Sequence record: NC_049948.1
Origin: Escherichia phage ev017
Reading direction: 5' to 3' (one strand)
Length of the DNA: 50,126 nt
In this document: one piece after another, positions 4,498 through 25,498 of the stretch
Position numbering within the stretch: position 1 is the stretch's first letter
Layout of the letters: each line of letters opens with the position of its first letter
Notes under the pieces: model-generated
Database searches by the model: none
Told to the model about the DNA's origin: nothing
What the model saw: only the letters and a program-made list of their open reading frames with translations
Position numbers and translations under genes: made by a program

Positions 4498-5992
4498 TCT
4501 TTCACACATTATTGCCGCAGCATTCAATGAACCGCTGCTTCTGGAGCCCGCCTATGCGCGGGTTTTCTTTTGCGCGCTCGGGCGCGAGATGGGGGCAGCA
4601 AGTCTTTCGGTACCACAACAGCAGGTACAGTTTGATGCTCCCGGAATGCTGGCTGAAACGGACGAGTACATGGCCGGAGGTAAACGACCGGCCCGTGTTT
4701 ACCGGGTGGTGAACGGTATTGCTGTACTGCCGGTGACCGGCACGCTGGTGCACCGGCTGGGTGGTATGCGGCCATTTTCCGGAATGACAGGCTATGACGG
4801 CATTGTCGCCTGTCTTCAGCAGGCAATGGCGGATAGCCAGGTGCGGGGCGTACTGCTGGACATTGACAGTCCGGGCGGGCAGGCCGCCGGCGCGTTTGAC
4901 TGCGCTGACATGATTTACCGCCTCCGTCAGCAGAAGCCGGTCTGGGCACTGTGCAATGACACGGCCTGTTCTGCAGCCATGCTGCTGGCGTCGGCCTGCT
5001 CCCGACGGCTGGTTACCCAGACATCCCGTATCGGCTCCATTGGCGTGATGATGAGCCATGTCAGCTATGCCGGTCATCTGGCGCAGGCCGGTGTGGATAT
5101 CACGCTGATTTACTCAGGGGCGCACAAGGTGGATGGCAATCAGTTTGAAGCGTTGCCGGCAGAGGTTCGCCAGGACATGCAGCAGCGGATTGATGCGGCG
5201 CGCCGGATGTTTGCCGAAAAAGTGGCGATGTATACCGGTCTGTCTGTTGATGCCGTCACGGGAACAGAGGCTGCCGTTTTTGAAGGTCAGTCCGGCATTG
5301 AGGCCGGGCTGGCGGATGAATTAATCAATGCGTCGGATGCCATCAGTGTGATGGCCACGGCGCTGAACAGTAATGTCAGAGGAGGCACTATGCCGCAATT
5401 AACTGCAACGGAAGCCGCCGCGCAGGAGAACCAGCGAGTGATGGGGATCCTGACATGCCAGGAAGCGAAAGGACGTGAACAGCTTGCCACGATGCTGGCA
5501 GGACAACAGGGCATGAGCGTTGAACAGGCCCGGGCGATTCTGGCCGCGGCGGCACCGCAGCAGCCGGTGGCATCCACGCAGAGTGAAGCCGATCGCATTA
5601 TGGCGTGTGAAGAAGCGAACGGTCGTGAACAACTGGCGGCAACGCTGGCGGCGATGCCGGAGATGACGGTGGAAAAAGCCCGCCCGATCCTGGCTGCTTC
5701 ACCGCAGGCGGATGCCGGACCATCACTCCGTGATCAGATCATGGCACTGGATGAGGCAAAAGGGGCTGAGGCGCAGGCTGAACAGCTGGCTGCCTGCCCG
5801 GGAATGACAGTGGAGAGCGCCCGGGCTGTGCTGGCTGCGGGATCAGGTAAGGCAGAACCGGTCTCTGCATCCACAACCGCCATGTTTGAACATTTCATGG
5901 CGAACCATTCACCGGCAGCGGTACAGGGTGGCGTGGCACAGACGTCAGCAGACGGTGATGCGGACGTGAAAATGCTCATGGCCATGCCATGA
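4487..5992 (+). CDS. C: Head maturation protease/scaffold (gpC-like, includes Nu3-like C-terminal region with tandem repeats)
   Basis: 501-aa ORF; AFNEPLLLEPAYARVFF and SGMTGYDGIVACLQQA match lambda gpC ClpP-like protease; C-terminal part carries three ~40-aa repeats. Confidence 0.9.
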   Translation: MRRNLSHIIAAAFNEPLLLEPAYARVFFCALGREMGAASLSVPQQQVQFDAPGMLAETDEYMAGGKRPARVYRVVNGIAVLPVTGTLVHRLGGMRPFSGMTGYDGIVACLQQAMADSQVRGVLLDIDSPGGQAAGAFDCADMIYRLRQQKPVWALCNDTACSAAMLLASACSRRLVTQTSRIGSIGVMMSHVSYAGHLAQAGVDITLIYSGAHKVDGNQFEALPAEVRQDMQQRIDAARRMFAEKVAMYTGLSVDAVTGTEAAVFEGQSGIEAGLADELINASDAISVMATALNSNVRGGTMPQLTATEAAAQENQRVMGILTCQEAKGREQLATMLAGQQGMSVEQARAILAAAAPQQPVASTQSEADRIMACEEANGREQLAATLAAMPEMTVEKARPILAASPQADAGPSLRDQIMALDEAKGAEAQAEQLAACPGMTVESARAVLAAGSGKAEPVSASTTAMFEHFMANHSPAAVQGGVAQTSADGDADVKMLMAMP

Positions 5993-6028
5993 AGTCAGTG
6001 CTGACCATCAATAGGAGGTTTTTACAAT

Positions 6029-6376
6029 ATGGTGACGAAAACCATCACTGAACAGCGTGCGGAAGTACGTATTTTTGCCGGTAATGATCCGGCTCATACC
6101 GCCACAGGCAGCAGCGGGATTTCCTCGCCAACACCGGCACTGACGCCCCTGATGCTGGATGAAGCCACCGGGAAACTGGTGGTCTGGGACGGACAGAAAG
6201 CCGGTAGTGCGGTTGGCATACTGGTACTGCCGCTTGAAGGCACAGAGACGGCGCTGACGTATTACAAGTCGGGAACCTTTGCGACGGAGGCAATCCACTG
6301 GCCTGAAAGTGTGGATGAACACAAAAAGGCCAACGCCTTTGCTGGCAGTGCCCTGAGTCACGCGGCGCTGCCGTAA
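6029..6376 (+). CDS. D: Head decoration protein (gpD-like)
   Basis: 115-aa ORF; DPAHTAT...PLMLD...KLVVWDG...YKSGTF matches lambda gpD. Confidence 0.88.
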   Translation: MVTKTITEQRAEVRIFAGNDPAHTATGSSGISSPTPALTPLMLDEATGKLVVWDGQKAGSAVGILVLPLEGTETALTYYKSGTFATEAIHWPESVDEHKKANAFAGSALSHAALP

Positions 6377-6433
6377 CACGTTATCAGGCCACCGCGGTGG
6401 CCTGACTGATTTCTGAATGAAAGGAACTGATTT

Positions 6434-7462
6434 ATGGGATTGTTTACGACCCGCCAGTTACTCGGTTATACCGAACAAAAAGTTAAATTTCGTGCGCTGT
6501 TTCTGGAGCTGTTTTTCCGCCGTACGGTGAATTTCCATACCGAAGAGGTGATGCTGGACAAAATTACCGGAAAAACGCCGGTGGCGGCCTATGTCTCCCC
6601 GGTTGTTGAAGGAAAAGTGCTGCGTCATCGTGGTGGTGAAACCCGCGTGTTGCGTCCGGGCTACGTCAAGCCGAAACACGAATTTAATTACCAGCAGGCG
6701 GTTGAGCGCCTTCCTGGTGAAGATCCATCTCAACTGAATGATCCGGCTTACCGCCGTCTGCGTATCATTACCGATAACCTCAAACAGGAAGAGCACGCGA
6801 TTGTCCAGGTGGAAGAAATGCAGGCGGTAAATGCTGTGTTGTATGGCAAATACACCATGGAAGGAGACCAGTTCGAGAAAATTGAGGTCGATTTTGGCAG
6901 GTCGACGAAGAATAACATCACTCAGGGTAGTGGTAAGGAGTGGTCAAAACAGGATCGTGACACGTTCGATCCTACACATGATATTGACCTCTACTGCGAC
7001 CTGGCCAGCGGTCTTGTGAATATTGCCATTATGGACGGTACCGTCTGGCGTCTTCTGAATGGTTTTAAGCTGTTCCGCGAAAAACTGGATACCCGTCGCG
7101 GTTCAAATTCTCAACTCGAAACGGCAGTGAAAGATCTGGGCGCAGTGGTGTCCTTCAAGGGGTATTACGGCGATCTGGCCATTGTGGTGGCGAAAACGTC
7201 TTATATAGCAGAAGACGGTATCGAAAAACGTTATCTTCCAGATGGCATGCTGGTTCTGGGGAATACTGCTGCAGATGGGATCCGTTGTTACGGTGCCATT
7301 CAGGATGCTCAGGCGTTGTCCGAAGGTGTGGTGGCCTCTTCCCGTTATCCGAAACACTGGCTGACGGTAGGGGATCCCGCCCGTGAATTTACCATGACGC
7401 AGTCCGCGCCGCTGATGGTGTTGCCGGACCCGGATGAGTTTGTGGTGGTACAGGTGAAATAA
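6434..7462 (+). CDS. E: Major capsid protein (gpE-like)
   Basis: 342-aa ORF collinear with lambda gpE (LDTRRGSNS.LETAVKDLG, GDPAREFTM.QSAPLM). Confidence 0.93.
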   Translation: MGLFTTRQLLGYTEQKVKFRALFLELFFRRTVNFHTEEVMLDKITGKTPVAAYVSPVVEGKVLRHRGGETRVLRPGYVKPKHEFNYQQAVERLPGEDPSQLNDPAYRRLRIITDNLKQEEHAIVQVEEMQAVNAVLYGKYTMEGDQFEKIEVDFGRSTKNNITQGSGKEWSKQDRDTFDPTHDIDLYCDLASGLVNIAIMDGTVWRLLNGFKLFREKLDTRRGSNSQLETAVKDLGAVVSFKGYYGDLAIVVAKTSYIAEDGIEKRYLPDGMLVLGNTAADGIRCYGAIQDAQALSEGVVASSRYPKHWLTVGDPAREFTMTQSAPLMVLPDPDEFVVVQVK

Positions 7463-7513
7463 TCCGTGAGCGGGGGCGAAATGCCCCCGTGTCTTTTTTC
7501 ACAGGGGGCTGAT

Positions 7514-7888
7514 ATGGCAACGAAAGAGCAAAATCTGAAACGGCTTGATGAACTGGCCCTGATTCTGGGGCGTGAGCCGGATATATCCGGGAGTGCCGCA
7601 GAGATAGCGCAGCGGGTGGCAGAATGGGAAGAGGAAATGCAGTCATCCGGCGATGATGTACAGGTTATGAATATGGATATCCGGGAGCGGGAAACCGCGG
7701 CTCATGATGTTCGTGAGGAAACATCCGGCGCGTTAACGCGCATCAGAGTTCTGACCTGCCTCCATCTCTGTGGCGTTGATGGTGAAACGGGGGAATCCGT
7801 TGAGCTTGCGGATGTTGGTCGGGTGATTCTGATTATGTCCTCAGATGCAAAAACACACGTTGATGGTGGAATGGCTGTTTATGCGTGA
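7514..7888 (+). CDS. FI: DNA packaging protein FI-like
   Basis: ORF 7466-7888; likely start MATKEQ at 7514 preceded by G-rich RBS; acidic small protein in the FI position between E and FII. Confidence 0.7.
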   Translation: MATKEQNLKRLDELALILGREPDISGSAAEIAQRVAEWEEEMQSSGDDVQVMNMDIRERETAAHDVREETSGALTRIRVLTCLHLCGVDGETGESVELADVGRVILIMSSDAKTHVDGGMAVYA

Positions 7889-8234
7889 TTTTCAGAATGC
7901 CTTTGATGCCGCCCTTGCCGGGGTGGACAGTACGATTGTTGAAGTGATGGGCATCAGTGCGCAGTTCACCTCCGGTGCACAGCGTGGCGGCGAGGTTCAT
8001 GGCGTTTTTGACGATCCGGAGTCGCTGGGTTTTGCCAGTAGTGGGATCCGTATTGAAGGAAGTAACCCGTCATTATTTGTGCTTACGGATACGGTTTGTG
8101 CTGTACGGCGTGGTGACACGCTGACCATTAACGGCGAGATGTTCTGGGTGGACCGTGTTTCTCCGGATGACGGAGGGAGTTGTTATCTCTGGCTCAACCG
8201 GGGGCAACCACCTGCCGCCAGCCGTCGCCGCTGA
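7881..8234 (+). CDS. FII: Head completion protein FII
   Basis: ORF 7845-8234; from Met at 7881 similar to lambda FII (GVFDDPE...FWVDRVSPDDGGSC.LWL.RG.PPA). Confidence 0.88.
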   Translation: MRDFQNAFDAALAGVDSTIVEVMGISAQFTSGAQRGGEVHGVFDDPESLGFASSGIRIEGSNPSLFVLTDTVCAVRRGDTLTINGEMFWVDRVSPDDGGSCYLWLNRGQPPAASRRR

Positions 8235-15774: not shown

Positions 15775-18700
15775 ATGGGTAAAGGCAGCAGTAAGGGGCA
15801 TACCCCGCGCGAAGCGAAGGACAACCTGAAATCATCCCAGATGCTGAGCGTGATAGACGCCATCAGCGAAGGGCCGGTTGAAGGTCCGGTGGATGGATTA
15901 AAAAGCGTGCTGCTGAACAGTACGCCGGTGCTGGACAGTGAGGGGAATACCAATATATTCGGCGTCACGGTGGTGTTCCGGGCCGGTGAGCAGGAGCAGA
16001 CACCGCCGGAGGGATTTGAATCCTCCGGCTCCGAGACGGTGCTCGGTACAGAAGTGAAATATGACACGCCGATCACCCGGACCATCACGTCGGCAAACAT
16101 TGACCGTCTGCGTTTTACTTTCGGCGTGCAGGCACTGGTGGAAACCACCTCAAAGGGGGACAGGAATCCATCGGAAGTCCGCCTGCTGGTTCAGATTCAA
16201 CGTAACGGTGGCTGGGTGACGGAAAAAGACATCACCATTAAGGGCAAAACCACGTCGCAGTATCTGGCCTCGGTGGTGGTGGATAACCTGCCGCCGCGCC
16301 CGTTTAATATCCGGATGCGCAGGATGACGCCGGACAGCACCACAGACCAGTTGCAGAACAAAACGCTCTGGTCGTCATACACCGAAATCATCGATGTGAA
16401 ACAGTGCTACCCGAACACGGCACTGGTCGGCGTACAGGTGGACTCGGAGCAGTTCGGCAGCCAGCAGGTGAGCCGTAATTATCATCTTCGCGGGCGCATT
16501 CTGCAGGTGCCGTCGAACTATAACCCGCAGACGCGGCAATACAGCGGTATCTGGGACGGAACGTTTAAGCCAGCATACAGCAACAACATGGCCTGGTGTC
16601 TGTGGGATATGCTGACCCATCCGCGCTACGGCATGGGGAAACGTCTTGGTGCGGCAGATGTGGATAAATGGGCGCTGTATGTCATCGGCCAGAATTGCGA
16701 CCAGTCAGTGCCGGACGGCTTTGGCGGCACGGAGCCGCGCATCACCTGTAATGCGTACCTGACCACACAGCGCAAGGCGTGGGATGTGCTCAGTGATTTT
16801 TGCTCGGCGATGCGCTGTATGCCGGTATGGAACGGGCAGACGCTGACATTCGTGCAGGACCGACCGTCGGATAAGGTGTGGACCTATAACCGCAGTAATG
16901 TGGTGATGCCGGATGATGGCGCGCCGTTCCGCTACAGCTTCAGCGCCCTGAAAGACCGCCATAATGCCGTTGAGGTGAACTGGATTGACCCGGATAACGG
17001 CTGGGAGACGGCGACAGAGCTTGTGGAGGACACGCAGGCCATTGCCCGTTACGGTCGTAACGTCACGAAGATGGATGCCTTTGGCTGTACCAGCCGGGGG
17101 CAGGCACACCGCGCCGGGCTGTGGCTGATTAAAACGGAGCTGCTGGAAACGCAGACCGTGGACTTCAGCGTGGGTGCAGAAGGGCTTCGCCATGTACCGG
17201 GCGATGTCATTGAAATCTGTGATGATGACTATGCGGGGATCAGCATCGGCGGGCGCGTGCTGGCGGTGAACAACCAGACGCGGACACTGACGCTCGACCG
17301 TGAAATCACGCTGCCATCCTCCGGCACCACGCTGATAAGCCTGGCTGACGGACAGGGGAATCCGGTCAGCGTGGAGGTCCAGTCCGTCACCGACGGCGTG
17401 AAGGTAAAAGTGAGCCGTGTTCCTGACGGCGTTGCAGAATACAGCGTGTGGGGGCTGAAGTTGCCAACGTTGCGCCAGCGCCTGTTCCGCTGTGTGAGTA
17501 TCCGTGAGAACGATGACGGCACGTATGCCATCACTGCCGTGCAGCATGTACCGGAAAAAGAGGCCATCGTGGATAACGGGGCGCACTTTGACGGCGACCA
17601 GAGCGGCACGGTGAATGGTGTCACGCCGCCAGCGGTGCAGCACCTGACTGCCGAAGTCACCGCAGACAGCGGGGAATATCAGGTGCTGGCGCGCTGGGAC
17701 ACGCCGAAGGTGGTGAAGGGGGTGAGCTTTATGCTTCGCCTGACCGTGGCAGCGGATGACGGCAGTGAGCGGCTGGTCAGCACGGCCCGGACGACGGAAA
17801 CCACATACCGCTTCAGGCAACTGGCGCTGGGGAACTACAGGCTGACAGTCCGGGCGGTAAATGCGTGGGGGCAGCAGGGCGATCCGGCATCGGTATCGTT
17901 CCGGATTGCCGCACCGGCAGCGCCGTCGCAGATTGAGCTGACACCGGGGTATTTTCAGATAACCGCCACGCCGCATCTTGCGGTTTATGATCCGACGGTA
18001 CAGTTTGAGTTCTGGTTCTCGGAAAAGCGGATTGCGGATATCAGGCAGGTTGAAACCACAGCACGCTATCTTGGCACGGCGCTGTACTGGATAGCCGCCA
18101 GTATCAATATCAAACCGGGCCATGATTATTATTTTTACATCCGCAGTGTGAACACCGTTGGCAAATCGGCATTTGTGGAGGCTGTTGGCCAGCCGAGTGA
18201 TGATGCATCCGGCTATCTGAATTTTTTCAAAGGAGAGATAGGGAAAACCCATCTGGCTCAGGAGTTGTGGACGCAGATTGATAACGGTCAGCTTGCGCCT
18301 GACCTGGCTGAAATCAGGACGTCCATTACGGGTGTCAGCAATGAAATCACGCAGACCGTCAATAAGAAACTGGAAGACCAGAGTGCAGCGATCCAGCAGA
18401 TACAGAAGGTTCAGGTTGATACAAATAATAACCTGAACAGCATGTGGGCTGTGAAGCTGCAGCAGATGCAGGACGGACGCCTTTATATCGCGGGTATTGG
18501 TGCCGGTGTTGAGAATACTCCTGACGGTATGCAGAGTCAGGTGCTGCTGGCGGCGGACAGGATTGCGATGATTAATCCTGCGAATGGCAACACAAAGCCG
18601 ATGTTTGTTGGGCAGGGCGATCAGATATTCATGAACGAAGTGTTCCTGAAATATCTGACGGCTCCCACCATTACCAGCGGTGGCAATCCCCCAACGTTTT

Positions 18701-19257
18701 CACTGACACCTGATGGTCGACTTTCTGCGAAAAATGCGGATATCAGCGGTAACGTGAACGCGAACTCCGGGACGCTCAACAACGTCACGATTAATCAGAA
18801 CTGTCGGATTCTGGGAAAACTGTCAGCTAACCAGATTGAAGGTGATATTGTCAAAACGGTGGGAAAAGCCTTTCCGAGAAATGGCAGTTATGCCAGCGGT
18901 ACAATAACGGTCACTGTGTACGATGACCAGGCTTTTGACCGTCAGATAGTAGTCCCCCCCGTTCTGTTTCGTGGGGGTAAGCATGAAAACTTCAACAGCA
19001 ACAACCAACAGTCATACTGGTATTCAACCTGTAAGCTGCAGGTACTGAAGAACGGACAGGAAATCTTTCAGCAACCCGCGACGGATGTCAGCAGGGTATT
19101 TTCATCAGTCATTGATATGCCTGCCGGACACGGCCATGTCACCCTGACTTTCAATGTTTCTTCATATGGTGCTAATAACTGGACGCCAACGACCAGTATC
19201 AGCGACCTTCTTGTTGTTGTGATGAAGAAATCTACAGCCGGTATCAGTATCAGTTGA
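15775..19257 (+). CDS. J: Tip attachment / central tail fibre protein J (host specificity)
   Basis: 1160-aa ORF; N-terminal ~800 aa collinear with lambda gpJ, C-terminal receptor-binding region appears divergent. Confidence 0.93.
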
Positions 19258-19275
19258 ATTTTATAACCCAGATAC

Positions 19276-19304
19276 GGGCGCCAGAAATGGCGCCTTTTTT
19301 ATTT
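19276..19304 (+). terminator. Rho-independent terminator-like hairpin downstream of J
   Basis: GGGCGCC-AGAAAT-GGCGCC stem-loop followed by a T-run. Confidence 0.6.
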
Positions 19305-19315
19305 GTGGAGTGAAT

Positions 19316-21376
19316 ATGGCAGTACAGATTTCAGGCGTGCTGAAAGACGGTGCAGGAAAACCGATACAGAACTGCACCATTCAGCTCAAAGCAAAACGTA
19401 ACAGCACCACGGTTGTGGTGAACACGGTGGCCTCAGAAAATCCGGATGAAGCCGGACGTTACAGCATGGATGTCGAGTATGGCCAGTACAGCGTTATCCT
19501 GCTGGTTGAAGGTTTTCCGCCTTCACATGCCGGGGCCATCACCGTGTATGAGGATTCTAAGCCGGGGACATTGAATGATTTTCTGGGCGCTGCAACAGAA
19601 GATGATGTTCGTCCGGAGGCACTGTATCGTTTTGAAAAGATGGTGGAAGAGGTGGCACGCAACGCTGAAGCCGCCTCTCAGAGCGCAGCGGCAGCAAAGA
19701 AATCAGAAACAGCAGCGGCATCGTCCAGGAATGCGGCGAAAACATCAGAGACGAATGCAGGTAACAGCGCGAAAGCGGCAGCTTCTTCAAAAACAGCCGC
19801 ACAAAACGCAGCAACAGCGGCAGAACGTTCAGAGACAAATGCCCGTGCGTCAGAAGAAGCCTCCGCAGACAGTGAAGAGGCTTCCCGCCGTAATGCAGAG
19901 TCAGCCGCTGAAAATGCCGGAGTCGCCACCACAAAAGCGCGGGAGGCCGCAGCAGACGCAACAAAGGCCGGGCAGAAAAAGGATGAGGCTCTGTCGGCAG
20001 CGACACGGGCTGAAAAGGCGGCAGACCGCGCAGAAGTCGCAGCGGAAGTGACTGCAGAGCCCTATGCGAATATAGTGCCGCCGCTGCCTGATGTGTGGAT
20101 ACCGTTTAACGATTCACTGGATATGATTGCGGGTTTTTCTCCGGGCTATAAAAAAATAGCTATTGGTGACGATGTGGTTCAGGTCGCCAGTGATAAACAG
20201 GTTAATTTCAGTCGCGCATCAACGGCAACATATATCAACAAATCTGGCGAACTGAAAACGGCGGAAATTAATGAGCCGCGATTTGAGTGTGATGGCCTGC
20301 TTATTGAGGGACAAAGAACGAACTACATGCTCAATTCGGAAAGTCCAGCCAGCTGGGGGAAGTCATCAAACATGGATGTGCCCGAAACCGGGACAGATAG
20401 TTTTGGTTTTACTTATGGAAAGTTTGTCTGCAACGATTCTCTGGTTGGGCAAACTTCGGCTATTAATATGGCATCAATTGCTGCAACAAAGTCAGTTGAT
20501 GTCTCAGGCGATAACAAGTACGTGACAACCTCATGCCGTTTTAAAACAGAACGACAGGTAAGGTTACGTATACGGTTTGATAAGTATGATGGTAGTGCAA
20601 CAACTTTTCTTGGCGATGCGTACATTGATACGCAAACGCTTGAAATTAATATGACAGGTGGGGCTGCCGGCAGAATTACGGCACGAGTCAGGAAGGATAA
20701 GACCACAGGCTGGATTTTTGCAGAGGCAACGATTCAGGCAATTGATGGTGAGTTAAAAATAGGCTCTCAGATACAGTATTCTCCTGAGCGGGGTGGGGCA
20801 ACAGTATCTGGTGACTATATTTATCTTGCCACCCCACAAGTAGAGAATGGGCCGTGTGTATCATCATTTATTATTTCAGGAGGCAGCGCAACGACAAGAG
20901 CCAGTGATTTGGTTAGTATCCCCACCAGAAATAATCTTTATAAGTTACCATTTACTTTTTTACTTGAGATTCATAAAAACTGGGATATTGCACCAAACGC
21001 CGCACCCCGCGTGTGGGATATAGCAGCAGCCAATACCGGGCAATCAGCAATTGCAGCAATCAACAGAGGTAGTGGTAAGTTATATATGAGTCTGTCAAAC
21101 CCTTCAGGCTTGTATGTTAATAGCGCAGCGACAGATGTATTTGCAGAGAAAACCACATTTGGATGTATTGCAAAAGCTGATGGTCACTTTCATGTGGTGA
21201 CAAATGGTAAAGCGGTTAATGAAGTTTATTGTGAATATAATGGTGTGACCGCTGATAAAAATATCCGATTTGGAGGGCAGACGAATACTGGAGAACGACA
21301 TCTGTTTGGCCATATTCGCAATTTCCGCATATGGCATAAAGAATTAAATGACAGGCAATTAAAAGAGGTCGTATGA
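19316..21376 (+). CDS. stf: Side tail fibre protein (Stf-like N-terminus, divergent C-terminal domain)
   Basis: N-terminus MAVQISGVLKDGAGKPIQNCTIQLKA...GRYSMDVEYGQYSVIL matches lambda Stf; Ala/Ser-rich repeat shaft; low-GC C-terminal half. Confidence 0.85.
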   Translation: MAVQISGVLKDGAGKPIQNCTIQLKAKRNSTTVVVNTVASENPDEAGRYSMDVEYGQYSVILLVEGFPPSHAGAITVYEDSKPGTLNDFLGAATEDDVRPEALYRFEKMVEEVARNAEAASQSAAAAKKSETAAASSRNAAKTSETNAGNSAKAAASSKTAAQNAATAAERSETNARASEEASADSEEASRRNAESAAENAGVATTKAREAAADATKAGQKKDEALSAATRAEKAADRAEVAAEVTAEPYANIVPPLPDVWIPFNDSLDMIAGFSPGYKKIAIGDDVVQVASDKQVNFSRASTATYINKSGELKTAEINEPRFECDGLLIEGQRTNYMLNSESPASWGKSSNMDVPETGTDSFGFTYGKFVCNDSLVGQTSAINMASIAATKSVDVSGDNKYVTTSCRFKTERQVRLRIRFDKYDGSATTFLGDAYIDTQTLEINMTGGAAGRITARVRKDKTTGWIFAEATIQAIDGELKIGSQIQYSPERGGATVSGDYIYLATPQVENGPCVSSFIISGGSATTRASDLVSIPTRNNLYKLPFTFLLEIHKNWDIAPNAAPRVWDIAAANTGQSAIAAINRGSGKLYMSLSNPSGLYVNSAATDVFAEKTTFGCIAKADGHFHVVTNGKAVNEVYCEYNGVTADKNIRFGGQTNTGERHLFGHIRNFRIWHKELNDRQLKEVV

Positions 21377-21651
21377 AAGATTTAACTTTGAAGTTTCATG
21401 ACAAACTGCAGTTTAAGGCCTTCCTGTCATCTCTTGACTGGGAGGAGGATGAAGACCTCCAGAATAAACTGTTAGTCGATGAAATTGGTTTCACCTACAC
21501 AGAAACAGGGGTAACAGAAGAGGGAGAACCTGTCTGTGTCCGGAATGACGGTTATTTTGTCAACATTCGCATTCTTGATGACTTGTTTGATGTTTCTGTA
21601 TTCTCTGATTATGTCGTGGAGCTGGAAACACCGCTTCGGGAATGGAGCTGA
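21373..21651 (+). CDS. Hypothetical small acidic protein downstream of tail fibre (possible fibre-associated factor)
   Basis: 92-aa ORF whose start overlaps the stf stop; low GC; no recognised motif. Confidence 0.45.
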   Translation: MKDLTLKFHDKLQFKAFLSSLDWEEDEDLQNKLLVDEIGFTYTETGVTEEGEPVCVRNDGYFVNIRILDDLFDVSVFSDYVVELETPLREWS

Positions 21652-21663
21652 AAGGAGGAAATA

Positions 21664-21957
21664 ATGGATATAAGCCCCTTACTTCATGCGCTTTGTGCTG
21701 TGGCTGCGCAGATACTGGTTGGTCTTTTTACCGGAAACTGGGCTTACGGAGCGATAGCCGGTTGTACGTTCTTCATTGCGCGTGAACATACCCAGGCAGA
21801 ATATCGCTGGATTGAAATGTTCGGGCATGGCAAGCGAATGAATATGCCGTGGTGGGGCGGTTTTGATCCGCGAGCTTGGGATGTGGCAAGCCTGATGGAT
21901 TTTGCTGTGCCGGTGGTGGCGTGTCTGCTGGTCTGGCTGTTGGTTAATCGTGGGTGA
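21664..21957 (+). CDS. Hypothetical membrane protein
   Basis: 97-aa ORF with RBS-like GGAGG upstream and two hydrophobic segments. Confidence 0.45.
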   Translation: MDISPLLHALCAVAAQILVGLFTGNWAYGAIAGCTFFIAREHTQAEYRWIEMFGHGKRMNMPWWGGFDPRAWDVASLMDFAVPVVACLLVWLLVNRG

Positions 21958-22048
21958 AAAAAGGTGAGCTGTATATGCAACGGAGGAAGAACCCCCGTTG
22001 CTGGAAGCCAGGAAAAAGTATCGGGTGTTGCTGTCCTCGGATGTTGTG

Positions 22049-22906
22049 CTAATTGGGTGATAACAGATCCTGTGTATGGGAGTTTCCCTTTTTGCGTGCG
22101 TTGATGCTGGTAACGGCAAACGTCATGATGAACAAAACCGCGAATAAGACGACAATCGTCGGAGCTGGTGCGCTGTCGATAAAAAAGGACAACCAGACAC
22201 CAGTCATTGACACTATTACCGATATGCCAGTCGCCAGTAGGAGCGCAATATGAAAGCGTTGTGTCAGGAGTACCGCAATGGCGCCAGGCGCAATGAGCAG
22301 AGAAATGGAGAGAATGATACCTACCGCTTTCAGCGTCGCCACAATGGTCAGAGAGACCATGCACAGCAGCCCATAATGCAGCCATCTCGTATGCAAACCG
22401 CTTACCTGCGCCTGTTGATAATCAAAGCTGAACAGCAAAAAATCCCGCCATTTTACGCTAATAACAAGTGTAACCAGCCCGGCAATAATCATCGTCTGGA
22501 TTATATCGCCGATGGTTATCCCGAGCATGTCGCCGAAAAGAATATGGTCAAGATGTACGTCTGGTTTGACTGCAATATACAAGATCAGACCTGCGGCAAA
22601 CATGCCAGAAAAAACAATCCCCATCACTGTATCTTGCTTGATTCGGCTGTTGTCTTTCAGGTATCCCGTCGCCACCGCGCAGAATACTCCGGCGACGAAT
22701 GCCCCTGTAGCCAAAGGTAACCCCAGAATCCAGGCAAGCACGATTCCAGGAAAAACCGCATGACTCATCGCGTCACCCATCAGTGCCCAACCTTTCAGGA
22801 CCAGAAAGACCGACAGCAGCGCACAGGGTATGGAAACTACCAGTGAAATCAGCAGTGCGTGACTCATAAAGGTGAACTGCAGTGGCTCCAGTAATAATGC
22901 CATCAT
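22049..22906 (-). CDS. sitD: Iron/manganese ABC transporter permease SitD
   Basis: 285-aa polytopic membrane protein typical of the ABC-3 permease family; last gene of a 4-gene operon. Confidence 0.88.
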   Translation of the reverse strand: MMALLLEPLQFTFMSHALLISLVVSIPCALLSVFLVLKGWALMGDAMSHAVFPGIVLAWILGLPLATGAFVAGVFCAVATGYLKDNSRIKQDTVMGIVFSGMFAAGLILYIAVKPDVHLDHILFGDMLGITIGDIIQTMIIAGLVTLVISVKWRDFLLFSFDYQQAQVSGLHTRWLHYGLLCMVSLTIVATLKAVGIILSISLLIAPGAIAVLLTQRFHIALLLATGISVIVSMTGVWLSFFIDSAPAPTIVVLFAVLFIMTFAVTSINARKKGNSHTQDLLSPN

Positions 22907-23760
22907 GAGCGATCCTCCAGCGCCTTATGCGCACGCCGACGATTTGCCAAAAGCCCATGGGTGGGCGCAAAGACAAATGCTAAAAGAAACAGCAGTGTCT
23001 GCGCCACCACGATGATTCCACCTGTCGCGCCGTCCAGAAAGTAACTGACCCACGCGCCGAGGAAACTAGTTACACTGCCAATAGTTACAGCAATCATGAG
23101 CAGGCGGGGAAAACGATCGGTTAACAACCATGCTGTTGCACCGGGAGTCACCACCAGACAGATCACCAGAAAGGCACCAACCGTTTGCAGCGCCGCAACG
23201 GTCGAAACCGACAGCAGGGTGAAGAAGATGAGTTTTAATCTGCCCGGATGCAATCCAATAGCACGGGCGTGATTCTCGTCGAAAAAGGTCACCATAAGAT
23301 CTTTCCATTTGAAAAAAAGCACGATGATCGAGAGAATGCCAATGATAGTGAGTTGCAGGATATCCGCCGGATCGATTGCCAGAATATTGCCCAGGACGAT
23401 GGTCTGAATGTTCACAGATGTCGGGTTCAATGACACCATAAACAGCCCCAGGCCAAAAAAGGACGAGAAGATCAGACCGATGATGGCATCTTCTTTTAAG
23501 CGGGTGCGTTGGTTAAGAAACAGCATGCTGCCCGCAGCCAGTCCGCCGGAAAAGAAGGCTCCCAGAGAAAACGGAAGCCCCAGCATATATGCCCCCGCAA
23601 CACCCGGGACAATAGAGTGCGACAACGCATCGCCAATCAGCGACCAGCCTTTTAGCATCAGATAGCATGACAGGAAAGCGCAGAGACCGCCGACCATCGC
23701 CGAGACCCACATCGCATTGAGCATATATTCATAGCTGAAGGGTTCCAGTAGCACGTTCAT
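22903..23760 (-). CDS. sitC: Iron/manganese ABC transporter permease SitC
   Basis: 285-aa ABC-3 family permease, translationally coupled to sitB and sitD. Confidence 0.88.
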
Positions 23761-24584
23761 CTTTCTTCCCTCTGCACCGCTGACGGTCGATGAGCCACAA
23801 AAGGGCGTTCATCGTCAGTAATAATGCTTTCTTCCGAGCCGTTAAGTGTGACATGGCGCAGTACGCCGCTAAAAGCCAGCTCTAGGTTCTCGGCTGTAAA
23901 AGTGGTGTCTGTCGGCCCGCTTGCCAGGACGGTGCCTTTGACCATGACCGTATAATCGCAAAATGTCGTGACGGATCCGAGATTGTGTGTTGAGACAAGC
24001 ATCGTTTTGCCTTCCGCGCGTAACTCCCTCAACAGGCTGATGATTTTGGCTTCGGTTTTCACATCAACGCCAGTAAAAGGTTCATCCAGCAGGATCACAT
24101 CACCCTGCTGTGCAATCGCTCTCGCCAGAAAGACGCGTTTCTTTTGTCCACCGGAAAGCTCGCCGATTTGTCGATGGCGAAAATTCACCATATCGACACG
24201 TTCCAGCGCATCGGTGACAATTTGACGATCCCTCTTTTTGGCGATACGCAACATACCCATATGCCCATAGCGGCCCATCATCACCACATCTTCCACCAGT
24301 ACAGGAAATGACCAGTCAACATCTTCTGACTGAGGGACGTAGGCAACCAGGTTTTTCTGTAACGCCTGTCGCGTGGGAATACCCAGAACAGATATCTTTC
24401 CGCTGGTCAGACGCACAAATCCCATAATCGCTTTAAACAACGTCGATTTTCCGGAACCGTTTACCCCAACCAGAGCGGCAATAGATCCACTTGGTACTGT
24501 GAAGGATGCATCGCGCAGTGCTGTGTGCCCGTTACGCCAGGTGACAGTAACATCATTAACGACAATGCCTGCAGATTGCATCAT
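23757..24584 (-). CDS. sitB: Iron/manganese ABC transporter ATP-binding protein SitB
   Basis: Walker [13 protein letters not shown] signature LSGGQKKR, Walker B ILLDEP. Confidence 0.92.
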
Positions 24585-25498
24585 TATTTCTCCCTTTTCC
24601 CAGCTTTAATTCCCTGTACCAGCGTACTGGTAGTAACCTTAAGAAGGTCGATATACGTCGGTACCGGGCCGTTTTCTGTGCTCAGGGAATCGACATAGAG
24701 CACACCGCCGTAGTGTGCGCCGGTTTCACGCGCAACCTGACGCGCTGGTTTATCGGAAATCGTACTCTCGCTAAAGACTGCCGGGATATGATTTTTCTTA
24801 ACTATATCAACAACCTTACGTACCTGCTGCGGTGTTCCTTGTTGATCGGCATTAATCGGCCACAGATAAAGCTCTTTTAGCCCCAAATCGCGTGCGAGAT
24901 AAGAAAAAGCCCCTTCACTGGTGACCATCCATCGCTGATTCTCAGGGAGTTCCGTAATCTGCTTACGCAGGGGGGCAAGGGTTTGGGTAATCTTGGCTTT
25001 ATAAGTATCGGCATTGCGTTGGTAGGTTTGTGCATTTGCCGGATCGTATTTTATCAACGCATCACGAATATTATCGACGTAAATCAGAGCATTATCTGGC
25101 GACATCCATGCATGGGGGTTAGGTTTGCCCTCATAGGGTCCTTCGGTGATCCCTACAGGCGTCACACCCGAAGAGACAATTACTTCTGGAACCCCATTGA
25201 GATGCTGGTAAAAGCGTTGGAACCACAATTCCAGATTCATACCATTGGCGAGAATCAGTTGTGCCCCCTGCGCACGTTTAATATCGCCAGGGGTAGGCTG
25301 ATACTCATGAATTTCTGCACCAGGCTTGGTTATGGATGAGACTTCTGCAGCATCTCCCGCCACGTTTTTGGCCATATCCGCGATGATGGTAAATGTTGTA
25401 ATGACCTTGAATTTTTCAGTTGCACTTGCCTGAAATGCGATCGAGCAGGTGAGTGCGAGGCCCCCCAAGAGCATGGTTACTTTTTTTATCGAGTGCAT
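24584..25498 (-). CDS. sitA: Periplasmic metal-binding protein SitA
   Basis: 304 aa with N-terminal signal peptide; cluster-9 metal-binding lipoprotein-like; first gene of operon. Confidence 0.88.

What the first reader, a model, noticed from the sequence alone, without database searches (positions are those of the whole stretch)
19276..21957. Chimeric side tail fibre with lambda Stf N-terminus and a low-GC foreign C-terminal domain, plus two small downstream ORFs
After a terminator-like hairpin downstream of J, a 688-aa protein begins with the lambda Stf N-terminal attachment domain, continues into an Ala/Ser/Glu-rich repeat shaft (SETNA-type repeats), then switches at about 20100 into a markedly AT-rich C-terminal half with no lambda similarity. 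A 92-aa acidic ORF overlaps its stop and a 97-aa membrane ORF follows; no canonical tfa gene is seen. This looks like a horizontally swapped receptor-binding module, possibly with a novel chaperone.
Basis: partly seen in the sequence, partly recalled or inferred. Interest (0 to 1): 0.45.

Follow-up and report, generated by a model that had tools for sequence, protein, structure and literature searches.

The report
Phage 21 side tail fibre locus
This is the already sequenced side-tail-fibre locus of lambdoid phage 21: a mosaic fibre with a lambda-type anchor and a borrowed lectin-like tip, always followed by a small partner protein of unknown role, so it is largely ordinary with one modest open question.

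Summary
Window 19276-21957 is 100% identical to Escherichia phage 21 (OL657228.1), where it is annotated as side tail fiber, hypothetical protein and putative membrane protein. About 300 E. coli genomes carry the same sequence.

The 686-aa Stf is a mosaic:
- a lambda Stf N-terminal anchor (PF08400);
- an Ala/Ser/Glu-rich shaft;
- from about 20081, a low-GC module made of a domain related to the head-spike fibre of the Rhodobacter gene transfer agent (GTA), plus a ConA/LamG-like domain.

The same module ends lateral fibres of T5-like, T1-like, Dhillonvirus, Nonagvirus, rV5-like and P2-like phages. In IrisVonRoten it was published as a "proximal fiber" with a galectin-like domain.

The 92-aa acidic ORF is tied to the module in both directions. 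It follows the fibre stop in 76 of 76 loci chosen by the module alone, and the module precedes it wherever upstream sequence was held in about 90 loci chosen by the ORF. It is under purifying selection and is unrelated to Tfa. Its role, chaperone or fibre subunit, is unproven.

The 97-aa membrane ORF was found almost only in temperate phages and is probably a separate moron. A 20-codon tfa 3' scar at 21977-22036 shows the cassette replaced an ancestral stf/tfa.

Verdict: already known locus. The only new angle is the uncharacterised 92-aa partner family.

The parts
19276..19305 (+). Intrinsic terminator-like hairpin plus T-run between J and stf
   Evidence: One search finds an 8-pair stem with 6 GC pairs followed by TTTTTATTTG. 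It is annotated as a terminator in phage 21 OL657228.1.
19316..21376 (+). stf, side tail fibre, 686 aa (phage 21 CPT_21_22). An in-frame GTG at 19310 would give 688 aa.
   Evidence: The region is 100% identical in nucleotides to OL657228.1. It matches phrog_1419 'tail protein' at 1102 bits.
19316..19708 (+). Lambda Stf-type N-terminal tail-attachment (Ig-like) domain, residues 1-131
   Evidence: PF08400 E 9.8e-69. PDB 9e7m lambda tail fibre residues 1-94, E 1.4e-49. In Ur-lambda this domain forms a dodecameric ring around the distal tail protein (PMC13455828).
19646..20080 (+). Ala/Ser/Glu-rich, presumably coiled-coil shaft, residues 111-255, GC 0.586
   Evidence: Composition. It is 60% identical to lambda orf-401 over residues 1-260. 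TRF finds no DNA tandem repeat.
20081..20950 (+). Conserved joint (PLPDVWIPFNDSLDM) plus GTA head-spike-fibre-like beta domain, residues 256-545, GC 0.446
   Evidence: NF048003 GTA_spike_fiber E 1.2e-14, 55.3 bits against a cut-off of 36. RcGTA Rcc01080 sequence (PDB 6tb9) E 1.4e-9 over residues 297-543. The conserved frame and one variable cassette are visible.
20951..21373 (+). C-terminal ConA/LamG-like (published as 'galectin-like') domain, residues 546-686, GC 0.409
21373..21651 (+). 92-aa acidic protein (CPT_21_23, phrog_1361), the module-linked fibre partner. Its start overlaps the stf stop (ATGA) and an AAGAGG Shine-Dalgarno lies upstream.
   Evidence: Synteny in both directions. dN/dS 0.13-0.41. 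AF2 pLDDT 90.6. No known fold or family relative.
21664..21957 (+). 97-aa two-span membrane protein (CPT_21_24, phrog_1443) with a strong AAGGAGG Shine-Dalgarno. Found almost only in temperate phages.
   Evidence: It is absent from the virulent T1/T5-like loci inspected. A homologue in Halomonas phiHAP-1 lies between the tail fibre assembly gene and the sheath gene.
21977..22036 (+). Remnant of the 3' end of a lambda-type tfa gene (Tfa residues 156-175), the scar of the cassette replacement. It is truncated by the sit region.
   Evidence: tblastn gives 75% identity over 20 residues, E 0.002. The same position holds a 36-39-residue remnant, 85-92% identical, in related prophages.

Best explanation
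This is the side-tail-fibre locus of a phage 21-type lambdoid prophage.

**Fibre architecture.** Twelve Stf chains, forming four trimers, presumably anchor around the tail tip through the lambda-type N-terminal Ig-like domain. They extend through an Ala-rich coiled-coil shaft. At a conserved joint (PLPDVWIPFNDSLDM) they continue into a horizontally acquired, low-GC distal module. That module has a beta domain related to the capsule-binding head-spike fibre of the Rhodobacter gene transfer agent, followed by a ConA/LamG-like lectin domain.

**Function (inferred).** The module binds a surface glycan such as O-antigen, LPS core or capsule. This gives reversible primary adsorption that helps J reach LamB.

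**The 92-aa protein.** It is encoded with a 4-base overlap on the fibre stop and is a dedicated partner of this module. It most likely acts as an assembly factor and/or a small subunit bound to the conserved framework of the module. It takes the place that Tfa holds in lambda.

**The 97-aa membrane protein.** It is a separate temperate-phage gene, probably a lysogenic-conversion or exclusion-type moron.

**Origin.** The three-gene cassette replaced the ancestral stf 3' end and tfa, leaving a tfa 3' scar.

**Shown versus inferred.** Shown: identity, domain composition, mosaic origin, strict synteny, selection and the scar. Inferred: glycan binding, oligomeric state, and what the 92-aa and 97-aa proteins do.
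For: **Identity.** The region is 100% identical over 2682 nt to phage 21 OL657228.1 (annotation). Among E. coli genome records, 308 match at 99% identity or more.

**Domains.**
- PF08400 and the lambda Stf N-terminal chain of PDB 9e7m.
- NF048003 above its curated cut-off and Rcc01080 at E 1.4e-9.
- The RcGTA head fibre binds capsular polysaccharide (PMC7296036 and PMC10218006).
- Homologous lateral fibres are proposed, and for T5-like phages reported, to use O-antigen as primary receptor. IrisVonRoten, whose Gp22 is homologous, infects E. coli K-12 with restored O16 O-antigen (BASEL papers).

**Horizontal origin.**
- GC steps down at the joint.
- The module is fused to P2 H-type and PF03406 N-termini.
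- It occurs in 228 phage records spanning at least six virulent or temperate lineages.
- A tfa scar lies at 21977-22036.

**92-aa partner.**
- In about 90 loci fetched by the 92-aa protein, the fibre module lies directly upstream wherever upstream sequence was held.
- In 80 loci fetched by the module alone, 76 of 76 with enough downstream DNA have a 92-aa-family ORF at the fibre stop.
- The same holds in IrisVonRoten, JenP1, tunus, ime and AKFV33.
- It moved with the module into a P2-like prophage, where only a 74-aa Caudo_TAP fragment remains.
- dN/dS is 0.13-0.41 in lineages without a distal fibre.
- Its low GC matches that of the module.

**97-aa protein as a separate gene.**
- Nearly all well-covering matches are in lambdoid or P2-like temperate phages. 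Weaker partial matches lie in a few large, non-lambdoid phages.
- Its GC is 0.53.
- It stays 100% identical while the fibre module falls to 40% identity.
- In PhiR63_1 a terminator separates it from the fibre genes.
Against: - No experiment on the phage 21 Stf or on either small ORF was found in the papers searched.
- No solved structure covers the head-spike-fibre domain. Only residues 2-10 of Rcc01080 are resolved.
- The 92-aa protein has no detectable relation to any known chaperone.
- Its sequence does not track the variable cassettes. It is 93-96% identical where the module is only 36-44% identical. That fits binding to a conserved frame, but it also fits a role unrelated to receptor specificity.
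- In most related prophages the module carries a distal fibre (67 of 76 loci). The phage 21 arrangement may therefore be a reduced form whose lectin domain is not the main receptor-binding element.
- Phage 21 plates on K-12 through J and LamB, so Stf is not essential in the laboratory.
Confidence: 0.6

Rival explanations
1. The 92-aa protein is mainly a structural adaptor that docks a second, distal fibre onto the end of the proximal fibre. Phage 21 has lost that distal fibre gene, so its locus is a truncated 'proximal-only' version. This partly overlaps with the best explanation.
For: - In 67 of 76 module-selected loci, a distal-fibre gene lies directly after the 92-aa ORF.
- The same order is seen in IrisVonRoten, JenP1, tunus, AKFV33 and PhiR63_1.
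- Otherwise unrelated distal fibres share an N-terminal motif, M[AV]TxT[VI]IPxDIxxLK.
- The distal fibres carry their own Peptidase_S74 intramolecular chaperone, so they need a docking site rather than a chaperone.
- The BASEL II paper models the T-shaped distal fibre as attached to the proximal fibre.
Against: - The 92-aa ORF is intact and under purifying selection (dN/dS 0.13-0.41) in several lineages with no distal fibre gene. These include the phage 21 type, the P2-like prophage and the 63-64% identity clade.
- The window encodes no distal fibre anywhere.
- The rV5-like phage ime has the module and a 110-aa homologue but no gene with the adaptor motif next to it.
Confidence: 0.25
2. The two small ORFs are unrelated passengers, such as anti-defence, exclusion or other morons. 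They merely sit in a recombination-prone slot next to the fibre gene and have no role in the fibre.
For: - Both are annotated only as hypothetical or membrane protein and belong to PHROGs of unknown function.
- The 97-aa protein does behave this way. It is found almost only in temperate phages and has a different GC.
- It is invariant while the fibre varies.
- A homologue sits in what, from my recollection of the P2 gene map, is the moron slot after the tail fibre genes in Halomonas phiHAP-1.
- Small acidic phage proteins are often inhibitors of host factors (general knowledge).
Against: For the 92-aa ORF the passenger idea fits poorly.
- The association with the module is one-to-one in both directions, across virulent and temperate phages of at least seven backbones.
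- The start codon overlaps the fibre stop.
- There is no PADLOC hit.
Confidence: 0.1
3. The stf gene here is a decaying, non-functional remnant, comparable to the frameshifted stf of laboratory lambda PaPa.
For: - Phage 21 infects K-12 through J and LamB alone.
- Some relatives carry IS insertions in stf.
- PGAP annotates the identical sequence in ATCC 25922 as a pseudogene fragment plus a shorter CDS.
Against: - The ORF is uninterrupted over 686 codons.
- It is 100% identical in hundreds of genomes.
- All domain HMMs match end to end.
- The PGAP split is an annotation artefact, because the DNA is identical to the intact phage 21 gene.
Confidence: 0.05

Closest known systems
Escherichia phage 21 (OL657228.1) genes CPT_21_22, CPT_21_23 and CPT_21_24
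   Same: The nucleotide sequence is identical over the whole finding. Gene calls, terminator and ribosome-binding sites are the same.
   Different: Nothing differs in sequence. The window is a prophage copy in an E. coli chromosome. The genome announcement does not discuss the fibre.
Lambda (Ur-lambda) side tail fibre Stf with its chaperone Tfa
   Same: The N-terminal anchoring domain matches (PF08400; close match to PDB 9e7m residues 1-94). The Ala-rich shaft, the position downstream of J and the primary-adsorption role are shared.
   Different: The distal half is unrelated: lambda orf-314 gives no match. There is no intact tfa, only a 20-codon scar. There is no lom between J and stf. A different small partner protein follows the gene.
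IrisVonRoten (Bas32) Gp22 'proximal fiber' with galectin-like domain, with Gp23 and the T-shaped distal fibre Gp24 (BASEL II, PMC11990801)
   Same: The C-terminal module is 52% identical to Gp22. The 92-aa protein is 49% identical to Gp23. The gene order fibre then 92-aa ORF is the same.
   Different: IrisVonRoten has a T5-type N-terminal attachment and a 574-aa distal fibre after Gp23. Phage 21 has a lambda-type N-terminus, no distal fibre and a 97-aa membrane gene instead.
RcGTA head spike fibre Rcc01080 (GhsB), NCBIfam NF048003
   Same: The central beta domain is homologous. Rcc01080 binds capsular polysaccharide, which suggests the glycan-binding role.
   Different: Rcc01080 is a single chain attached to a pentameric capsid spike base through an N-terminal (I/L)-G repeat peptide. 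Here the domain sits at the end of a tail fibre and is followed by an extra LamG-like domain.
Branched LtfA/LtfB lateral fibres of T5-like phages DT57C and DT571/2
   Same: The concept is shared: a proximal fibre provides the attachment site for a second fibre, and the fibres target O-antigen.
   Different: LtfA and LtfB both end in Peptidase_S74 intramolecular chaperones and lack this module. No 92-aa partner is described for them.

Membership tests
Lambda-type side tail fibre (Stf) | N-terminal 'prophage tail fibre N-terminal' domain (PF08400) that anchors the fibre to the tail tip | tested here: met
   PF08400 E 9.8e-69 over residues 1-131. Matches the PDB 9e7m chain at E 1.4e-49.
Lambda-type side tail fibre (Stf) | Gene located directly downstream of the central fibre gene J in a lambda-like tail operon | tested here: met
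   J lies at 15775-19257 and stf at 19316-21376.
Lambda-type side tail fibre (Stf) | Lambda-type distal (C-terminal) receptor-binding region | tested here: not met
   tblastn with lambda orf-314 gives no hit in the window or in related loci.
Lambda-type side tail fibre (Stf) | Adjacent Tfa chaperone gene (Caudo_TAP, PF02413) | tested here: not met
   No Pfam hit. Only a 20-residue Tfa remnant at 21977-22036.
GTA head spike fibre domain family (NF048003) | Score above the curated NCBIfam cut-off | tested here: met
   55.3 bits against a cut-off of 36, E 1.2e-14, residues 329-529. Rcc01080 matches at E 1.4e-9.
GTA head spike fibre domain family (NF048003) | N-terminal (I/L)-G repeat peptide that binds a pentameric capsid spike base, with location on the head | tested here: not met
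   The N-terminus here is the lambda Stf anchor. The feature is described in PMC7296036. This is therefore a relative at domain level only.
ConA-like lectin / LamG superfamily (PF13385 Laminin_G_3) | Pfam score above the gathering threshold, or a confident jelly-roll fold | tested here: inconclusive
Tail fibre assembly proteins (Tfa / Caudo_TAP), for the 92-aa ORF | Sequence or profile similarity to Tfa | tested here: not met
Tail fibre assembly proteins (functional class), for the 92-aa ORF | Required for folding or oligomerisation of the cognate fibre | not testable with these tools
   Only indirect support is available: strict synteny, the overlapping start and purifying selection.
Fibres with a C-terminal intramolecular chaperone (Peptidase_S74) | PF13884 domain at the C-terminus | tested here: not met
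   Stf has no PF13884 hit. The distal fibres of related loci do have one.
Two-part proximal plus distal lateral fibre (IrisVonRoten type) | Proximal fibre carrying this module, followed by the 92-aa ORF | tested here: met
   52% identity to Gp22 and 49% to Gp23, in the same order.
Two-part proximal plus distal lateral fibre (IrisVonRoten type) | Distal fibre gene with the conserved N-terminal adaptor motif and an S74 chaperone | tested here: not met
   No such gene or motif is found anywhere in the window.
Known anti-phage defence or exclusion proteins, for the 97-aa ORF | Match to a PADLOC, Pfam or NCBIfam model | tested here: not met
   There are no significant hits. It belongs to phrog_1443 of unknown function.

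The most novel reading that the evidence does not exclude
The 92-aa protein (phrog_1361) would define a new class of tail-fibre accessory protein. It is unrelated to Tfa, gp38/gp57-type chaperones and S74 intramolecular chaperones. It would be obligatorily paired with one lectin-tipped fibre module across at least seven phage backbones. It would act as an assembly factor that stays on the fibre, serving as a cap or as a docking hub for exchangeable distal fibres. If so, phages could re-tool their host range by plugging different distal fibres onto a conserved adaptor.
Probability: 0.4. Interest if true: 0.45.

Novelty: already known. Interest (0 to 1): 0.27.

Why it matters
The practical value is modest. 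The module with its 92-aa partner behaves as a portable unit that has been grafted onto lambda-, P2-, T5-, T1- and rV5-type tails. That makes it a ready-made cassette for engineering host range. It also means that anyone transplanting this fibre tip should probably carry the 92-aa gene along.

The locus lies in a prophage that also carries the sitABCD iron/manganese uptake genes and is common in extraintestinal pathogenic E. coli. What this fibre binds therefore bears on how that prophage spreads.

The locus itself is already sequenced and annotated, and its fibre type has been described. The only real gap is the biochemical role of the two small proteins.

Tried and rejected

3. **Exhaustive HMMER with the 92-aa profile.** It hit several giant proteins with 6-10 'copies'. 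Pfam shows these are PKD- or TPR-repeat proteins. I judged the hits to be repeat-driven false positives and not domain fusions.

5. **Covariation of the 92-aa protein with the variable cassettes.** Spearman correlation was 0.80 with the LamG cassette and 0.61 with the GTA-like cassette.
   - The set was biased, because strongly divergent cassettes dropped out of the tblastn filter.
   - Adjacency alone explains the ordering.
   - Clear counter-examples exist, with the 92-aa protein 93-96% identical where the module is 36-44% identical.
   - It is therefore not used as evidence for specific recognition.

6. **DT57C LtfA/LtfB as a direct model.** Those fibres use S74 chaperones and lack this module. 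They are an analogy only.

7. **True tandem repeats in the shaft.** None exist at the DNA level.

8. **Virion proteomics for the 92-aa homologue.** The AKFV33 paper confirms the fibre ORF137 by mass spectrometry but does not mention ORF136.
Full report
**1. The observation**

- A long ORF runs from 19310 (GTG) or 19316 (ATG) to 21376.
- A 92-aa ORF lies at 21373-21651. Its ATG overlaps the fibre stop as ATGA.
- A 97-aa ORF lies at 21664-21957.
- Both small ORFs have good Shine-Dalgarno sequences.

Other features also check out.
- A hairpin with a T-run sits at 19276-19305, after J.
- GC is 0.586 in the shaft. It falls to 0.446 and 0.409 in the two C-terminal domains, is 0.427 in the 92-aa ORF, and rises to 0.531 in the 97-aa ORF. 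The step lies at about 20081.
- The shaft is Ala/Ser/Glu-rich but is not a tandem repeat at the DNA level.
- The 92-aa protein has pI 4.1. The 97-aa protein has two hydrophobic spans.

**2. Identity**

- The 2682 nt are 100% identical to Escherichia phage 21, OL657228.1 positions 19194-21875.
- That record annotates a terminator, 'side tail fiber' (686 aa), a hypothetical protein (92 aa) and a 'putative membrane protein' (97 aa). The sitDCBA genes, attP and the icd fragment follow.
- Among E. coli genome records, 308 match at 99% identity or more, including ATCC 25922, NU14 and APEC O18.
- In ATCC 25922, PGAP splits the identical DNA into a pseudogene fragment and a 'phage head spike fiber domain-containing protein'. 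This is an annotation artefact.
- The genome announcement for phage 21 does not discuss the fibre.
- Work on phage 21 host range concerns J with LamB, OmpC and OmpF only.

**3. Anatomy of Stf**

- Residues 1-131 match PF08400 (E 9.8e-69). Residues 1-94 match the lambda Stf fragment in PDB 9e7m (E 1.4e-49). In Ur-lambda this Ig-like domain forms a dodecameric ring around the distal tail protein (PMC13455828).
- Lambda similarity (60% identity) extends through the shaft to about residue 260 and then stops.
- Residues 297-543 match the RcGTA head spike fibre Rcc01080 (E 1.4e-9). Residues 329-529 match NCBIfam NF048003 above its cut-off.
- Residues 560-681 give a sub-threshold Laminin_G_3 hit.
- Only residues 2-10 of Rcc01080 are resolved experimentally. 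It is a single chain per spike and binds capsule polysaccharide.
- Aligning diverse homologues shows a conserved frame around two variable cassettes. The frame consists of the PLPDVWIPFNDSLDM joint, RASTATYINKSG...EPRFExDGLLIEGQRTN, ATPQVExG..SSFI....TRASD, and the C-terminal IRxGGQT..G.RHLFGHxRNxRxWHKxLxDxQ.

**4. The module is mobile**

- It occurs behind PF08400, PF12571 (P2 H-like) and PF03406 N-termini.
- In a P2-like prophage the fibre is followed by 92-aa and 97-aa ORFs and then a 74-aa Caudo_TAP fragment.
- tblastn finds the module in 228 phage records. Inspected examples are:

| Lineage | Phage |
|---|---|
| T5-like | IrisVonRoten, AKFV33 |
| T1-like | tunus |
| Nonagvirus | JenP1 |
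| rV5-like | ime |
| Dhillonvirus | SLUR29 (listed, not inspected) |

- In the window, lambda Tfa residues 156-175 are recognisable at 21977-22036, just after the 97-aa ORF. Relatives keep a longer remnant at the same position. In the window the sit region cuts it short.
- The cassette therefore replaced the 3' part of an ancestral stf together with most of tfa.

**5. The 92-aa ORF**

- It belongs to phrog_1361. All 366 homologues found are 'hypothetical'.
- Fetching loci by the 92-aa protein gave about 90 loci. Wherever upstream sequence was held, the fibre module lies directly upstream.
- Fetching 80 loci by the module alone gave 76 of 76 with a 92-aa-family ORF at the fibre stop.
- The pairing holds in every virulent phage inspected.
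- dN/dS against the window allele is 0.13-0.41.
- AF2 gives a confident alpha+beta model (pLDDT 90.6), but it has no informative structural neighbour.
- There is no Pfam, NCBIfam, PDB or PADLOC match and no relation to lambda Tfa.
- The protein does not track the variable cassettes. It stays 93-96% identical where the module is only 36-44% identical. Any contact should therefore be with the conserved frame or with a conserved third partner.

**6. Distal fibres in relatives**

- In most related prophages (67 of 76) and in the T5-like, T1-like and Nonagvirus phages inspected, a second fibre gene follows the 92-aa ORF.
- These distal fibres differ in their bodies. They share an N-terminal motif, M[AV]TxT[VI]IPxDIxxLK, and a Peptidase_S74 intramolecular chaperone.
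- The BASEL II paper models the T-shaped IrisVonRoten Gp24 as attached to the 'proximal fiber' Gp22, which has a protruding galectin-like domain. It does not discuss Gp23, the 92-aa homologue.
- The window encodes no distal fibre. Phage 21 therefore has the proximal fibre and the 92-aa protein only.
- This keeps alive the rival reading that the 92-aa protein is a docking adaptor. Its conservation and purifying selection where no distal fibre exists argue that its primary tie is to the module itself.

**7. The 97-aa ORF**

- It belongs to phrog_1443.
- It was found in 73 phage records. Nearly all well-covering matches are in lambdoid or P2-like temperate phages, with weaker partial matches in a few large, non-lambdoid phages. 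It is absent from the virulent loci inspected.
- It stays 100% identical where the fibre module diverges to 40%.
- Its GC resembles that of the host.
- In PhiR63_1 it follows a terminator.
- A homologue in Halomonas phiHAP-1 lies between the tail fibre assembly gene and the sheath gene. From my recollection of the P2 map, this corresponds to the slot that holds the P2 gene fun(Z).
- I read it as a separate temperate-phage moron of unknown function.

**8. Mechanism and verdict**

*Shown:* a mosaic Stf with a lambda anchor and a horizontally acquired lectin-type module; a strictly co-inherited small partner; a tfa scar.

*Inferred:* the fibre binds a surface glycan for reversible adsorption. This is by analogy with the RcGTA head fibre and with the O-antigen-targeting lateral fibres proposed for the homologous phages. 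The 92-aa protein assists assembly and/or remains on the fibre.

The locus is already in GenBank and its fibre type has been described, so the finding is 'already known'. The residual interest lies in the uncharacterised 92-aa partner family.

Noticed in passing
window 21977-22036: A 20-codon remnant of the 3' end of a lambda-type tfa gene (Tfa residues 156-175) lies just after the 97-aa ORF. Related prophages keep 36-39 codons at the same spot. Here the sit region truncates it.
   Followed up: yes
window 22049-25498 (minus strand): The sitDCBA iron/manganese ABC transporter operon lies inside the prophage between the fibre locus and attP/icd, as annotated in phage 21. It is a virulence-associated moron carried by the phage.
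   Followed up: partly
L002 (E. coli ATCC 25922, NZ_CP009072.1) 6041-8101: PGAP annotates DNA that is 100% identical to the intact 686-aa stf as a truncated pseudogene plus a 417-aa 'phage head spike fiber domain-containing protein'. This is an annotation artefact and recurs in many RefSeq E. coli genomes.
   Followed up: partly
L005 6704-7744; L093 5084-6808; L094 5093-6148; L095 5087-5824; L098 4080-5753: Distal fibre proteins of otherwise unrelated sequence share an N-terminal motif, M[AV]TxT[VI]IPxDIxxLK, and a Peptidase_S74 intramolecular chaperone. The motif looks like a universal plug for docking onto this proximal-fibre module.
   Followed up: partly
L003 (Lambda_4C10) 5551-7967; H31 and H32 in E. 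coli genomes: Insertion sequences interrupt stf in several phages and strains. A three-gene mobile element sits 130 nt before the stf stop in 4C10, 4A7, 1W and 3W. IS3-family elements sit in stf in two E. coli chromosomes.
   Followed up: no
L005 (PhiR63_1) about 7745-7785: A strong intrinsic terminator (GGGGCCGAGCGCCCC followed by a T-run) separates the distal fibre gene from the 97-aa membrane gene. This suggests the latter is not simply part of the late fibre transcript in those prophages. In the window no terminator lies between the 92-aa and 97-aa ORFs.
   Followed up: no
phage records MG065652-MG065666, OR849447: GenBank records labelled Campylobacter and Listeria phages carry this coliphage fibre module and its 92-aa partner at 39-55% identity. 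They look like rV5-like or other coliphage sequences that are mislabelled, or contaminants.
   Followed up: no
P0277, P0283, P0284, P0301, P0305: The 92-aa profile gives multi-copy hits in giant PKD- and TPR-repeat proteins. Pfam shows these are ordinary repeat proteins, so I judged the hits to be repeat-driven false positives.
   Followed up: yes
L097 (Halomonas phage phiHAP-1) 3501-3806: A 39%-identical homologue of the 97-aa membrane protein lies between the tail fibre assembly gene and the tail sheath gene of an unrelated temperate myovirus. This family of small membrane proteins therefore recurs next to fibre genes across genera.
   Followed up: partly
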